Shown here piece after piece: positions 1,678-6,466 of a DNA stretch of 35,187 nt. Below the pieces are notes generated by a model. The model saw only the letters and a list, made by a program, of their open reading frames with translations, ran no database searches and was not told the origin of the DNA. The DNA comes from a virus (taxonomy: Duplodnaviria; Caudoviricetes), in the IMG/VR virus record IMGVR_UViG_3300009068_000095, positions 1 to 35,187 of that record. One strand, given 5' to 3'. The position numbers and the translations under genes were made by a program. Position 1 is the first letter of the stretch; every line of letters starts with the position of its first letter.

Positions 1678-1862
1678 ACGCTACGATAATTTACTTAAAA
1701 GATGGGAAAAACGGCATGGTTGAGGTCTCGATGGAAATTATCGGGCAGCCTAACCAATCTTTCCTATTGAGTAAGAACATTGGTGAAAAGCTAGCCGAGC
1801 TTAAGATTACTAAGTTTTGCGACAATGAGTTTACGCAAGAGCCGCCGGAAATGCTGCAATAA
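1674..1862 (+). CDS. hypothetical protein
   Basis: ATGA coupling; converges on the primase gene. Confidence 0.65.
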   Translation: MNATIIYLKDGKNGMVEVSMEIIGQPNQSFLLSKNIGEKLAELKITKFCDNEFTQEPPEMLQ

Positions 1863-2628
1863 GCAATTTCCCAGCTTCGTAAGCACCCAATCTTAATTCA
1901 GCGTCATTAAAATCTTCCTTTTGAATATCGGAAACCCAATGGGGATACCCTTGTGCTACCTTGATTCCTACGGGGTCATTATCAGCCACGATAACGCAGT
2001 CAGGATACGACTTTGCCATATCTGATAGATTGCCAGCAGAGAAACATACAACGAGCTTATAGCGGGTTTTGTTGCATTTTAGAGCCCGTCTTACAGATAA
2101 GGCAGTCGCCATACCCTCACAGAGTATCGGAATACCCTTGTTATCCATGATATATACCGCACCTTTATTGCATTGTCCGGCAAGAAACCGCTTAGTCCCA
2201 TCTTGGGATATGGTTTGCAGACCGGAAATATTCCCATCAATCCGCATGGGGATTACTAGATTACCTTCCCACACATACCCTTTTAGCTCGGGAAAACCCT
2301 TAGCCGCTAAATACGGGTGCGTTGTCTCTACGCATTGTGAGAGTATCCAACTTGCCCGCTTAGCTGCCGCCGCTTGACGCTGCAGGGTAATTTGCTCAGA
2401 TTTTTTGCGTTTAGCTGCTAATTGAGGGTCAGGCTTATAGTCCTGGCCTCTCCAAAGAACGGGCTTCTCATGCTTACTCCAATCCTGCAGAGCTCCACAA
2501 TTTCCAGAGTAAATATATGAACCATTCCGTTTATTAGGATGGTCTAAAGTCTTTACCCTTGTCCATTTGTCATATACGAGATGGTCGATAATTAACCCGT
2601 GCTGCTCTGCAAAAGATTCAAATGTCAT
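1831..2628 (-). CDS. TOPRIM-domain DNA primase (phage/plasmid type)
   Basis: HPYLAAKG, LVIPM, LQTI..DGTKRFLAG, ILCEGMATALS, IVADND and DFND TOPRIM motifs. Confidence 0.88.
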   Translation of the reverse strand: MTFESFAEQHGLIIDHLVYDKWTRVKTLDHPNKRNGSYIYSGNCGALQDWSKHEKPVLWRGQDYKPDPQLAAKRKKSEQITLQRQAAAAKRASWILSQCVETTHPYLAAKGFPELKGYVWEGNLVIPMRIDGNISGLQTISQDGTKRFLAGQCNKGAVYIMDNKGIPILCEGMATALSVRRALKCNKTRYKLVVCFSAGNLSDMAKSYPDCVIVADNDPVGIKVAQGYPHWVSDIQKEDFNDAELRLGAYEAGKLLIAAFPAALA

Positions 2629-4103
2629 GCTGCTTTCCTATACTGTTTTGATTTGGAGAACGCAATCATTCTGCTTTTAATCCAGCTAAGGGTCTGCTGG
2701 GATGGTGGGCGGGGCTCTACCTTTATTCCATTAGGATAGGCATCAAACTTCTCACGATACTTAATGGCTGCCCATCCGTCTTTATATCCCTTCATACGTC
2801 CGTAATAGACTAACTCGGAATAGAAGTGGGTATTTTGTATCTGGAGCTTCTTATTTGCCTTATCTAGCTCTTCAAGAGTGCCAGCTATGCTTATAATAGA
2901 ACTTAGAGCTTGCCTGACGTGTCCACAGGAGGAGCAAGTATTGTTCGGAGATGTCCAAAGTGCGGCACAGGCGGGACACTTTGCTGCTTTCTTTTCTCTT
3001 TCAGTAGGCTCACGCTTAGTCACCTCACCGCCGGTCTTGAGTTCCGTTACGCCGTCGTGGTATAGGCTTTCCCAATCATCCCTGAACCGCAGGAAATTAC
3101 CTGAATGGTCTAGCAGGACACCAAAATCCTTGCCTTCGTGGGGTCTTAGGATGCGTCCGATTTGTTGAACATGGCTGCTAAAGGACTTACTAAACGGTCT
3201 AGCAGAAATGCCAATACAAACATCGGAAACGTCAAAGCCACGAGTAAGGATATCAGTGGCAATAAGACCATGAATATTAGTGTCAGGTTTACCAAAATCT
3301 TCAATAGTATCTCGCTTGAAGTCATCATCTTCCTTGTATGAAATAGAAACAAAGTTATAACCGGCTGCTTTAAATTGAGCTACAAGTTCCTTGCCGTGCT
3401 CAACACCAGCACAGAACACAATAGTCTTCATAGGTTTGCCGTATATCTCATAGGTTTTTTTAACCCATTCCGCAACGATATCTCCGGTTATTTGAATGCC
3501 TCGGGAAGTAGCTTCTGCTTGAGACCATTCGCCGGCAATCAGTTTTACTCCGGTCATATCAATTTCTTTGGCGATATAAACCTTAAGCGGGACAACCCAG
3601 CCTTCTTCCACGAGTTCCTTCATGGGAGCTGCACCAATAACATTTGTGTAGATGTTGCCAAGACCGCTAGTAAACGGGGTGGCAGTAAGACCGACTACTT
3701 TAATTTGAGGGTTAGCCTTAATGAAGTCCACTGTTGATTTATACATGACATGGCACTCATCAACAATAAGCATATCAATATCTGGAAACTTGCGGCGGGC
3801 TAAAGTCTGAGACGAACAGATTTGGATAGGTTCAAATGGACGCTTGTTCCAATGACTTCCCTGTCTTACTCCATGTTTAATACCATATTTGGCTAATCTT
3901 TTACTGGTCTGGTCAACCAATACTATACGGTCTAAAACCATCGCTACCCGCTTACCTTCAGATGCGGCTTGCTGCATGATAGCCATAGCACATTCTGTTT
4001 TACCAAACCCTGTAACGGCACAGAGGATTTGGCGGGTATGTTCTTTGAAACCTTCGTTTAACTTTTGGATTACTTCAGATTGATGCGGACGCAATACTAA
4101 CAC
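2625..4103 (-). CDS. superfamily 2 (DExH) helicase, RadD/YejH-like, with C-terminal Zn finger
   Basis: LRPHQ, TGFGKT (Walker A), DECH, GLTATP, RGFD, QQIGRILR, LDHSGN, CPAC...CSSC; TAGGAG RBS with GTG start. Confidence 0.93.
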   Translation of the reverse strand: MLVLRPHQSEVIQKLNEGFKEHTRQILCAVTGFGKTECAMAIMQQAASEGKRVAMVLDRIVLVDQTSKRLAKYGIKHGVRQGSHWNKRPFEPIQICSSQTLARRKFPDIDMLIVDECHVMYKSTVDFIKANPQIKVVGLTATPFTSGLGNIYTNVIGAAPMKELVEEGWVVPLKVYIAKEIDMTGVKLIAGEWSQAEATSRGIQITGDIVAEWVKKTYEIYGKPMKTIVFCAGVEHGKELVAQFKAAGYNFVSISYKEDDDFKRDTIEDFGKPDTNIHGLIATDILTRGFDVSDVCIGISARPFSKSFSSHVQQIGRILRPHEGKDFGVLLDHSGNFLRFRDDWESLYHDGVTELKTGGEVTKREPTEREKKAAKCPACAALWTSPNNTCSSCGHVRQALSSIISIAGTLEELDKANKKLQIQNTHFYSELVYYGRMKGYKDGWAAIKYREKFDAYPNGIKVEPRPPSQQTLSWIKSRMIAFSKSKQYRKAA

Positions 4104-4768: not shown

Positions 4769-4944
4769 TTCAAACTTCTGAGAGCTTGTTCCAGTTGATG
4801 CTGTGTTGCTTTACTGTTATTCATTACTCTCTGAGCTTCATTACAGCGTTCTTTCCAACGGATAACTTGCTGGACTGAGCCGTTTTTTACGGCGTCCGGA
4901 ATTTTATTCATTTGTTCTTGTATTTGTTTTCTAATGTCGTTCAT
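4765..4944 (-). CDS. hypothetical protein (59 aa)
   Basis: MNDIRKQIQEQMNKIPDAVKNGSVQQVIRWKER...ALRSLK*; ATGA overlaps at both ends. Confidence 0.7.
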   Translation of the reverse strand: MNDIRKQIQEQMNKIPDAVKNGSVQQVIRWKERCNEAQRVMNNSKATQHQLEQALRSLK

Positions 4945-5105
4945 TTCACATCCAATAAATCTTCAGGTTTAATACCACGTTTTTCTAAGGCTATCTTAAA
5001 CTTCTCTAATGCCTGCTTCTCGTAATGGTTAACATTTGGGCGGCTCATACCTAATGCATCTGCTACTTCTTGCTGCGTCATATGGTAATAATCTTTTTGG
5101 TTCAT
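4941..5105 (-). CDS. sigma70 region-4-like HTH protein (54 aa)
   Basis: MNQKDYYHMTQQEVADALGMSRPNVNHYEKQALEKFK...; GGAGG RBS. Confidence 0.8.
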   Translation of the reverse strand: MNQKDYYHMTQQEVADALGMSRPNVNHYEKQALEKFKIALEKRGIKPEDLLDVK

Positions 5106-5184
5106 AAATTTCCTCCGGTCTTTTACTGTATGCCCGCTTTTTCAGTATTCCTATAGGTGTTTTCCATTAACAAACTTCCTTCTC

Positions 5185-5492
5185 TCATAGGACAGGACGA
5201 GAGGGTGATAAGCACATAGGATAAATATGTGAAGTCTCCGCATCTTCAGCCGACTTGCGTCCACTGCTCCCTGAGGTACTGTTTGTCTTCCAGAGCGCCT
5301 ATCAACTAGAGTCGGCCATACTCCCCTACATCACCCATCATGCTCTGTTCGTGTGGATACCCAGTCAAGTCCCACTGCGCCGTCCTGTCAAATCTTTCGA
5401 TATAAGCGCAACCTGTCTTTAATATCTCGGTCATTAGATATATCCATGTAAGGTAGCTGGATGAACCGTCTGTATCGTCGCTCTACGGCGGA
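5185..5492 (-). ncRNA. candidate large multi-stem structured RNA
   Basis: Nested helices 5191-5199/5381-5389, 5203-5209/5330-5336 and 5249-5255/5310-5316, plus local hairpins and a GAAA tetraloop on the - strand; no ORF of 60 aa or more. Confidence 0.6.
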
Positions 5493-5494
5493 AA

Positions 5495-5600
5495 AGGAAA
5501 AACCTCATAGGGTATGAAGTCTGATTGGACATTCGCTTATGTTTACTTCCCGCCACCTAAACATAAAAGAACAGTTCAGACCCCATACAGTATGAGGCTT
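5495..5600 (-). ncRNA. C4/CI-like antisense RNA / attenuator hairpin
   Basis: Long interrupted stem 5503-5597 followed by a U-rich tract on the - strand; its two single-stranded boxes are complementary to upstream boxes at 5604-5612 and 5629-5634. Confidence 0.65.
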
Positions 5601-5653
5601 ACAGCGGGAAGTTTAACATAAAAGAACCGTCCAAAGTCCGTTTACGCAAATGA

Positions 5654-5664
5654 AGTGTATCACA
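5654..5664 (-). promoter_or_regulatory. extended -10 promoter driving the RNA cassette and replication operon
   Basis: The - strand reads TGTG-A-TACACT. Confidence 0.5.
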
Positions 5665-5782: not shown

Positions 5783-5796
5783 TAGGGTTTACCCTA
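5783..5796. promoter_or_regulatory. palindromic operator-like site TAGGGTTTACCCTA
   Basis: Palindrome between divergent transcription units; related copies occur elsewhere in the window. Confidence 0.5.
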
Positions 5797-5840: not shown

Positions 5841-5858
5841 TAACTTATGGAGATAACC

Positions 5859-5996
5859 ATGTTTGATTTTGAAAAGCAATACAAAGATGCATTAGCAAAG
5901 TTTGAGACTGTAACCAAGCAGAGCAAAGAAGCGTACGAGTTTTGGTACAACTGCGTAATGGACTCATGGAAAGACTTGTATAGCAAGAAGAAGTGA
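5859..5996 (+). CDS. small helical protein, possibly phasin-like (45 aa)
   Basis: MFDFEKQYKDALAKFETVTKQSKEAYEFWYNCVMDSWKDLYSKKK*; GGAG RBS; has its own terminator. Confidence 0.7.
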   Translation: MFDFEKQYKDALAKFETVTKQSKEAYEFWYNCVMDSWKDLYSKKK

Positions 5997-6002
5997 TTTA
6001 AC

Positions 6003-6028
6003 GGGGGGTATAACCCCCCTTTTTGTTT
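6003..6028 (+). terminator. intrinsic terminator
   Basis: GGGGGGT-ATA-ACCCCCC followed by TTTTTGTTT. Confidence 0.8.
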
Positions 6029-6115: not shown

Positions 6116-6466
6116 TTAGGTATCAATTAAGTATTCTTTAATAGTCACTTGGCAGCCGCCGCCCTTAATTTTCTCGCCCCGCTCCACTATCAGCTTCCAG
6201 ACTTGCTGGTCGTCGTCGTAAATAATTCCGTTCATGGAGTCTAGGACGCACTTGCAAATGTTATCTATGTCCAATAGCCGCTTGTCTCTTGGATAAAGGA
6301 TGATGGATACTTCTACTGGCTTATCTCCAAATGTAGCAACGTTCCTACATATTTCTTGGACGGCTTTTTTAAATTCCATTCCACGCTTGGAAATATACCG
6401 GCGATGACCGCTAGCCAGCCAATAAGCATTGACGCTACAGGGATAAGGAAATACTAGGGTAAGCAC
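6116..6466 (-). CDS. rusA: RusA-family Holliday junction resolvase
   Basis: PYPCSVNAYW, PRDKRLLDIDNICKCVLDSM, YDDDQQV. Confidence 0.9.
   Translation of the reverse strand: MLTLVFPYPCSVNAYWLASGHRRYISKRGMEFKKAVQEICRNVATFGDKPVEVSIILYPRDKRLLDIDNICKCVLDSMNGIIYDDDQQVWKLIVERGEKIKGGGCQVTIKEYLIDT

What the first reader, a model, noticed from the sequence alone, without database searches (positions are those of the whole stretch)
5110..5492. ~300-380 nt ORF-free, deeply nested multi-stem element (candidate novel ncRNA)
Seen: perfect nested long-range helices GACAGGACG 5191-99/CGTCCTGTC 5381-89, GGGTGAT 5203-09/ATCACCC 5330-36 and GCCGACT 5249-55/AGTCGGC 5310-16. Local hairpins occur at 5213-31 (CACATA/TATGTG), 5231-47, 5266-96, 5353-75, 5422-41, 5442-62 and 5466-88. 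AUC-GAAA-GAU (5401-5392) and G-U extensions favour the - strand. TGCGC 5376-80/GCGCA 5406-10 would cross the outer helix (pseudoknot or alternative fold), and a second CCTGTC (5412-17) offers another register. Such a gap is conspicuous in a genome with almost no intergenic space. I do not recognise the family.
Basis: partly seen in the sequence, partly recalled or inferred. Interest (0 to 1): 0.85.

Follow-up and report, generated by a model that had tools for sequence, protein, structure and literature searches.

The report
Knotted phage RNA, likely replication origin
A freshwater phage carries a ~300-base non-coding element absent from Rfam, predicted to fold as an RNA with four pseudoknots, in a slot that related phages fill with interchangeable folded elements and where an origin-binding starter gene is missing, so it likely marks where phage DNA copying begins.

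Summary
The element is real: minus strand, about 5490-5186. The whole-gap folding z-score is not significant, but 32 distinct full-length homologues show compensatory changes. No Rfam family matches. The element follows a promoter-like site and a C4/CI-like antisense stem-loop, and precedes HTH, helicase and primase genes. Related phages fill this slot with one of eight partly related folded elements, including Rfam Betaproteobacteria-1. Among phages whose lambda-O-like initiator lacks its N-terminal DNA-binding half, 49 of 51 carry such an element; among those with a full-length initiator, 0 of 64 do. The two sets are largely different clades. Best reading (0.5): an RNA-based replication origin, working like ColE1 RNA II or the non-RepA mycobacteriophage origins; nothing here tests replication. 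Rivals are a put-like antiterminator, a trans-acting RNA, or folded ssDNA. The Fremin 2023 viral RNA alignments could not be read, so a prior listing is not excluded.

The parts
5186..5490 (-). Structured element ('family B', my label), about 305 nt, four predicted pseudoknots
   Evidence: 89 of 395 loci hit, 32 distinct full-length sequences, 4 clusters at 70%; pair tables; map
5465..5489 (-). P1 hairpin; inner 3 bp 5487-5485/5478-5476
   Evidence: inner pair U-A 7, C-G 12, U-G 1, mismatch 1 of 21; outer pairs change on one side only
5442..5462 (-). P2 hairpin with a near-invariant 11-nt loop
   Evidence: double changes in two or three pairs
5411..5440 (-). Module 1: P3 hairpin (5440-5423) whose loop pairs with 5413-5411 (PK1)
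   Evidence: PK1 central pair A-U 10, C-G 8, U-G 6; all five pairs canonical in 24 of 24
5376..5410 (-). P4 (5410-5406/5380-5376), which encloses the 5' strand of P5 and so forms a pseudoknot
   Evidence: four inner pairs invariant in 24 of 24, so conserved but without covariation
5191..5389 (-). P5 outer long-range helix 5389-5381/5199-5191
   Evidence: top-ranked stack in an unbiased scan of 13,393 variable column pairs
5353..5375 (-). P6 hairpin
5291..5347 (-). P10 (5347-5342/5296-5291), enclosing the P7 5' strand and module 2
   Evidence: fully paired with double changes in 11 of 11 group A/B and 10 of 10 group C
5203..5336 (-). P7 (5336-5330/5209-5203), crossing P10
   Evidence: six pairs canonical in 13 of 13 group A/B/E sequences with little variation; group C has a different split helix
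5297..5324 (-). Module 2: P8 hairpin (5324-5308) whose loop pairs with 5299-5297 (PK2); a second copy of module 1
   Evidence: PK2 outer pair G-C 13, A-U 8 of 21; P8 double changes
5247..5266 (-). P11 capped by a GNRA hairpin (5261-5252)
   Evidence: GNRA loop in 11 of 11 group A/B with double changes in the stem; P11 A-U 19, G-C 2 of 21
5498..5600 (-). C4/CI-like antisense stem-loop ending in a U tract; loop 5557-5546 and bulge 5530-5525 complement upstream boxes
   Evidence: z -5.2; boxes covary in six homologues, read by eye
5604..5634 (-). Leader boxes (5634-5629 and 5611-5604) complementary to the antisense bulge and loop; pairing them frees a terminator-like hairpin
   Evidence: alternative fold, z -4.7
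5654..5662 (-). Extended -10 promoter-like site
   Evidence: sequence, conserved; not reported by the -35/-10 scan
4941..5105 (-). Small HTH gene, first gene downstream
2625..4103 (-). SF2 helicase
   Evidence: phrog_16; ResIII and Helicase_C
1831..2628 (-). Toprim primase
   Evidence: phrog_2249; Toprim_3
6116..6466 (-). RusA-like resolvase, upstream landmark of the slot
   Evidence: phrog_34

Best explanation
The element is a conserved, pseudoknotted sequence on the minus strand that likely acts as a cis RNA marking the phage replication origin in place of a DNA-binding initiator. Shown: the covarying helices, the position at the head of the replication operon, swapping with other folded elements in one slot, and co-occurrence with initiators that lack their N-terminal half. 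Inferred: transcription from the site at 5662-5654 either stops at the C4/CI-like unit or reads into the element. The nascent RNA would fold and lock through P5 and P7 only when its 3' end is made. It would then hold the duplex open as an R-loop or supply a primer near 5190. The phage helicase and primase (this phage), or the stand-alone initiator C-terminal domain with host enzymes (G001 type), would load there. The antisense unit would set how often this happens and could give immunity in a non-integrated state.
For: One slot, one occupant: 36 of 73 helicase loci hit one of eight profiles. Apart from the 5' domain that F and J share, no locus held two families. The antisense unit and the large element swap independently. 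G001 (rated complete) carries this family, no helicase or primase among the ORFs scanned, and only the C-terminal part of phrog_270. That protein is stand-alone in 80 of 80 relatives. Longer relatives carry HTH_36 or DUF1376 domains, and in phage Fyn8 the full-length gene lies between cII and the helicase loader. With at least 2.5 kb upstream, 49 of 51 truncated-initiator loci carry a slot element versus 0 of 64 full-length loci. A model-free check gives ORF-free gaps of 300 nt or more in 42 of 47 versus 5 of 64, and Rfam finds nothing in 17 of the 80 full-length loci tested. In cultured phage AP1, Betaproteobacteria-1 lies just after the primase rather than after an antisense unit, so the slot RNA stays with replication genes. 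In L280 and L273 the element follows a Cro-like gene. HTH_36 and tyrosine integrase are absent from 5 of 5 near-complete genomes. Precedent: PMC7157519 and PMC3035462 (passages read).
Against: No replication data. The truncated and full-length sets are largely different clades with different GC content, so the contrast may be few independent events. The profiles were seeded from loci of the first set. 37 of 73 helicase loci had no hit; short flanks or a distant slot was shown only for G006-G008. MW202426 has helicase and primase but no slot-family hit in the 14 kb read. G skew on the RNA strand is only 0.09 in the window. No cis-antisense RNA I was identified. Cumulative skew follows gene direction and does not single out the site. 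RNA-library contigs cover the element but also neighbouring genes. The window's record is rated 56% complete, so an initiator could lie outside it. The slot is also where lambdoid nut/put sites lie (recalled).
Confidence: 0.5

Rival explanations
1. A cis-acting RNA antiterminator like HK022 put: the nascent RNA binds RNA polymerase and lets it read through downstream terminators.
For: Lies after an early promoter or Cro-like gene and before replication genes, which is the nutR/putR position (recalled). No N-like gene was recognised. In AP1 the slot RNA precedes a nin-like run of small genes.
Against: In group B and family J a promoter-like site follows the RNA directly. The link to initiator truncation is not predicted. 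About four times the recalled size of put.
Confidence: 0.15
2. A trans-acting RNA or RNP (decoy, protein scaffold or GOLLD/ROOL-like ornate RNA) released by processing, placed here only to use an early promoter.
For: Flanked by a U tract and often a promoter. Invariant loops and a duplicated module suit protein binding. RNA-library contigs of two studies cover it.
Against: Fixed position and orientation next to replication genes across eight families, one per locus. No sign of high abundance (contigs only). Loop complements elsewhere in the window reach only 8-9 nt.
Confidence: 0.15
3. The fold forms in single-stranded DNA and is a loading site for primase or helicase, like ssi/pas sites.
For: Same context evidence as the best reading. 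PMC5737381 notes that such motifs are hard to tell from ssDNA structures (passage).
Against: GNRA loops in 11 of 11 group A/B, many G-U pairs, and a position right behind a transcribed antisense unit.
Confidence: 0.08
4. A 5' leader or riboswitch that controls the first downstream gene.
For: In the window no promoter is found between the element and the HTH gene. Competing P10 folds could be a switch.
Against: The downstream gene varies (HTH, ParB-like, helicase, PAPS-reductase-like). The element does not cover a ribosome site, and an intervening promoter-like site is common.
Confidence: 0.07
5. A ribozyme that cuts or processes the early transcript.
For: Chained pseudoknots and invariant linkers.
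Against: No Rfam ribozyme hit even at E up to 10. Group II domain V-like letters are present only in groups C-E.
Confidence: 0.05

Closest known systems
Betaproteobacteria-1 RNA (Rfam RF02932)
   Same: Fills the same slot in close relatives, behind the same antisense unit in L019 and L020. By eye it also extends to about 210 nt with a long-range 3' pairing.
   Different: No sequence or model match to this element. The hairpin-loop module was not found in it. No function for it was found in print.
ColE1 RNA II/RNA I and MRB plasmid origins (PMC3035462, passages)
   Same: A long folded transcript in a region without a Rep gene, under small-RNA control.
   Different: No plasmid match. The control RNA here is upstream on the same strand, not a cis-antisense RNA I. 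The phage encodes its own helicase and primase. Priming is untested.
Non-RepA origins of parABS mycobacteriophages (PMC7157519, passages)
   Same: A phage without integrase or full initiator, with a ~600-bp transcribed non-coding region; a ParB-like gene lies next to it in many relatives.
   Different: Different hosts. No ParA was seen among the ORFs scanned and the window itself lacks ParB here. The main text has no 'secondary structure' passage. No sequence comparison was made.
ARRPOF, GEBRO and PAGEV motifs (PMC5737381, passage)
   Same: 223-349 nt motifs tied to plasmid replication regions.
   Different: Plasmid-borne; no Rfam hit here.
P1/P7 C4 and P4 CI antisense RNAs (recalled)
   Same: The adjacent unit 5600-5498 has two exposed stretches complementary to upstream boxes that covary.
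   Different: No Rfam C4 hit. No second, downstream target pair was seen by eye. This describes the neighbour, not the element.
HK022 put RNA (recalled; one search gave listings only)
   Same: Folded cis RNA near an early promoter of a lambdoid-like phage.
   Different: Much larger and pseudoknotted; often followed by a new promoter-like site.

Membership tests
Betaproteobacteria-1 (RF02932) | Covariance-model score of 49.4 bits or more | tested here: not met
   No hit in the window or in 12 loci, 10 of them homologues; positive controls score 78-105 bits
Any Rfam 15 family | Gathering-score match | tested here: not met
ColE1/MRB-type RNA replicon | No origin-binding Rep protein | tested here: inconclusive
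   None recognised in the window, G001 or G003; the window's record is incomplete and many ORFs are unannotated
ColE1/MRB-type RNA replicon | Cis-antisense RNA I overlapping the 5' end of the long RNA | tested here: inconclusive
   No + strand promoter or terminator there by consensus scan; no stranded reads available
ColE1/MRB-type RNA replicon | Sequence similarity to plasmid origins | tested here: not met
   No match in PLSDB
ColE1/MRB-type RNA replicon | RNA-DNA hybrid primes DNA synthesis; region replicates alone | not testable with these tools
   needs mini-replicon and nascent-strand data
put-type antiterminator | Nascent RNA makes RNA polymerase resist termination | not testable with these tools
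   position only
C4/CI antisense RNA (upstream unit) | Exposed stretches complementary to upstream boxes, covarying | tested here: met
   read by eye in alignment A1; folds; a scripted extraction failed
C4/CI antisense RNA (upstream unit) | Rfam C4 model match | tested here: not met
C4/CI antisense RNA (upstream unit) | RNase P processing and superinfection immunity | not testable with these tools
   recalled features

The most novel reading that the evidence does not exclude
Lambdoid-like phages of aquatic Betaproteobacteria have replaced the origin-binding half of their initiator with a swappable set of pseudoknotted RNAs (this family, Betaproteobacteria-1 and six more). The RNA itself acts as origin recogniser and loading platform for a phage helicase/primase or a stand-alone initiator C-terminal domain: an RNA initiator, not merely a primer.
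Probability: 0.25. Interest if true: 0.93.

Novelty: new variant of a known kind. Interest (0 to 1): 0.78.

Why it matters
It would give a testable function to an orphan Rfam motif and to at least seven further folded elements in one stroke. It would also extend RNA-based replication initiation to abundant aquatic phages that carry their own helicase and primase. Even if the origin reading fails, a 300-nt RNA with four covarying or conserved pseudoknots and a duplicated tertiary module is a good target for structure work. A cultured phage (AP1) holds a slot RNA, so the question can be tested.

Tried and rejected
Whole-gap folding z-score: not significant; kept as a result against, outweighed by covariation. 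Peptide coding: no shared frame. tRNA/tmRNA: none. blastn against phages and plasmids: only chance-level pieces or nothing. The GTDB scan gave 24 pattern matches; only two contigs of one MAG are homologues, in phage-like context. Loops as anti-ribosome-site RNA: best complements 8-9 nt, ribosome-site position not checked, not pursued. Group II domain V and RNase P resemblances: rejected by eye, letters not conserved in groups A/B. Pairing of the P2 loop with the G-rich stretch before P8: plausible in A and C, weak in B, by eye only, not claimed. G006-G010 first looked like counter-examples; G006-G008 hold family J and G010 family G, and G009 was not examined further. No RNA was seen after the primase in the helicase loci displayed. 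The stand-alone initiator domain gave a model (pLDDT 85) but no PDB match, so a DnaT-like role rests only on GenBank labels. Contig laying cannot give RNA ends, strand or level. MAFFT misaligned P4 and the 3' part, so pairs were counted from motif anchors. One anchor was wrong and was corrected, whose script then stopped on a coordinate error fixed. L347 (truncated) was left out of the 24-sequence tables; groups D and E (3 sequences) were left out and did not parse. Literature searches for a description found none.

Full report
Setting. The window is an IMG/VR-type virus record rated 56% complete, with podovirus-like virion genes. On the minus strand the order is RusA-like resolvase (6116-6466), a gap of about 750 nt, a small HTH gene (4941-5105), three small genes, an SF2 helicase and a toprim primase. 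Rfam gives no match in the window. At E up to 10 it gives only a chance microRNA hit on the upstream hairpin.

Observation. The quoted helices are in the sequence. Folding energy alone is unremarkable for the whole gap (z +0.39 and -0.66) and modest for the core on the minus strand (z -2.9). Pattern scans of viral, metagenome and genome collections and a helicase search gave 395 loci. Of these, 89 hit the profile, with 32 distinct full-length sequences, 15 clusters at 95% and 4 at 70% identity; the count includes the window's own copy. I sorted 24 representatives into five groups, A-E.

Structure (map). The outer helix P5 has pairs 3-9 canonical in 24 of 24 sequences, and six of its columns change on both sides. 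It is the top stack in an unbiased scan: 294 of 13,393 variable column pairs are fully canonical with a double change, 233 of them isolated and probably due to relatedness, and the longest stacks are P5 and PK1. P2, P3 and P6 show double changes. On alignment A4, 90.6% of cells pair against 82.1% in shuffles, although MAFFT misplaced P4 there. Four crossings are predicted. PK1 joins the P3 loop to 5413-5411 (A-U 10, C-G 8, U-G 6 of 24). P4 is crossed by P5; P4 is invariant, so conserved but not proven by covariation. PK2 joins the P8 loop to 5299-5297 (G-C 13, A-U 8 of 21). P10 is crossed by P7; P10 is fully paired with double changes in groups A-C, while P7 varies little. P3/PK1 and P8/PK2 share loop and receptor letters and look like a duplicated module. 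G-U changes and GNRA loops fix the strand and favour RNA over DNA. No tree-aware significance test was run.

Upstream neighbour. 5600-5498 folds as a long stem-loop ending in a U tract (z -5.2). With the leader included, boxes at 5634-5629 and 5611-5604 pair with its bulge and loop and free a terminator-like hairpin (z -4.7). The boxes change together with their complements in relatives (by eye). This matches my recollection of P1 C4 and P4 CI RNAs; I saw only search listings on them.

The slot. In close relatives the same position holds Rfam Betaproteobacteria-1 (9 of 15 loci scanned), in L019 and L020 behind the same antisense unit as the window. Other relatives hold six further folded-looking sequences, which I labelled F-K. 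With profiles for all eight, 36 of 73 helicase loci hit. F and J cross-hit through a shared 5' part, and otherwise no locus held two families. The misses were not checked one by one; in G006-G008 the slot lies 4-10 kb upstream and is filled. In group B and family J a promoter-like site follows the RNA, which argues against a leader. In the cultured phage AP1, which has cI- and cro-like genes, Betaproteobacteria-1 lies directly after the primase.

Link to the initiator. G001, rated complete, carries this family but no helicase, primase or integrase among the ORFs scanned. It encodes a 134-aa protein matching only positions 178-266 of initiator family phrog_270. All 80 relatives fetched are equally short. 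Longer relatives add HTH_36 or DUF1376, and in Fyn8 the full-length gene sits at the lambda O position. Three of the 80 short loci lacked my anchor motif and were dropped; they carry Betaproteobacteria-1. With at least 2.5 kb upstream, 49 of 51 short-initiator loci carry a slot element (17 of 26 with less). None of the 80 loci from the full-length search does, 64 of them clearly full-length with enough flank. ORF-free gaps of 300 nt or more occur in 42 of 47 versus 5 of 64. The limits are real: the profiles come from the first set, GC content differs, and the sets are largely separate clades.

Mechanism. Two unlike replication modules share these elements, and both lack a recognisable origin-binding protein. 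In lambda the origin lies inside gene O (stated in PMC7157519, passage). The simplest reading is that the folded transcript has taken over origin marking. Precedents, read as passages only: ColE1 and MRB plasmids (PMC3035462); non-RepA mycobacteriophage origins, where a ~600-bp transcribed region suffices (PMC7157519); and the ARRPOF, GEBRO and PAGEV motifs (PMC5737381). R-loop formation, priming, protein loading and control by the antisense unit are all inferred. Results against: weak G skew, no RNA I found, uninformative genome skew, RNA contigs that cover genes as well, one helicase-primase record with no hit, and no structural match for the short protein. I put the origin reading at 0.5, a put-like antiterminator and a trans-acting RNA at 0.15 each, folded ssDNA at 0.08, a leader at 0.07 and a ribozyme at 0.05.

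Novelty. Not in Rfam 15, and no description was found in searches. The supplement of PMC5737381 could not be read, and attributing RF02932 to that paper is recall. For PMC10690425 (listing and supplements only) four table or text files gave no hit, but the large archive and PDF files were unreadable, so the family may be among its candidates. The scan's own index held no note on this element. One note, e1-8235517, seen after my own checkpoint, proposes the same role for Betaproteobacteria-1 on another genome; it is not independent evidence. Verdict: a real, Rfam-absent, highly pseudoknotted element; likely a new variant of RNA-based replication origins; interest 0.78.

Noticed in passing
window 5498-5662 (-): C4/CI-like antisense unit with two alternative folds (z about -5) and covarying target boxes; no Rfam hit. 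Several unrelated sequence types of the same design sit in this position in relatives.
   Followed up: partly
L430:3935-4190, L413:3055-3300, L464:3285-3540: Family F (my label): about 250 nt, no Rfam hit where scanned. Its 5' part resembles family J and its 3' part resembles group B, suggesting domain shuffling.
   Followed up: partly
L404:11636-11959, L077:3570-3860, L409:10741-11060: Family J: about 320 nt. It has a hairpin loop and downstream letters like module 1 and a run of four G tracts near the 3' end.
   Followed up: partly
L027:3355-3770, L057:3040-3500, L074:2560-2800, L420:3180-3390: Four more slot occupants (G, H, I, K); structure not analysed, no Rfam hit where scanned.
   Followed up: no
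L490:8893-9110 (Acidovorax phage AP1): Unannotated Betaproteobacteria-1 RNA right after the primase gene; the conserved region runs about 90 nt beyond the Rfam model.
   Followed up: partly
L150 and L342, upstream of the element: A small ORF of about 75 codons lies between the antisense unit and the element, in the place of P1 icd / P4 kil (recalled).
   Followed up: no
L399:10353-10757: A family of stand-alone 125-135 aa initiator C-terminal domains; well-predicted helical model, no PDB or Pfam match.
   Followed up: partly
window 5847-5996 (+): 49-aa gene on the opposite strand with its own terminator (6003-6022), present in some relatives and absent in others.
   Followed up: no
L491:2891-3053 (MW202674): F-like match (E 5e-17) under tiny CDS annotated on the opposite strand, which are probably spurious.
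   Followed up: no
L403:9490-10680: RtcB-like tRNA ligase in the early operon of G006.
   Followed up: no
window 5783-5796: Short palindrome upstream of the promoter, also present, sometimes repeated, in relatives; possibly a binding site.
   Followed up: no
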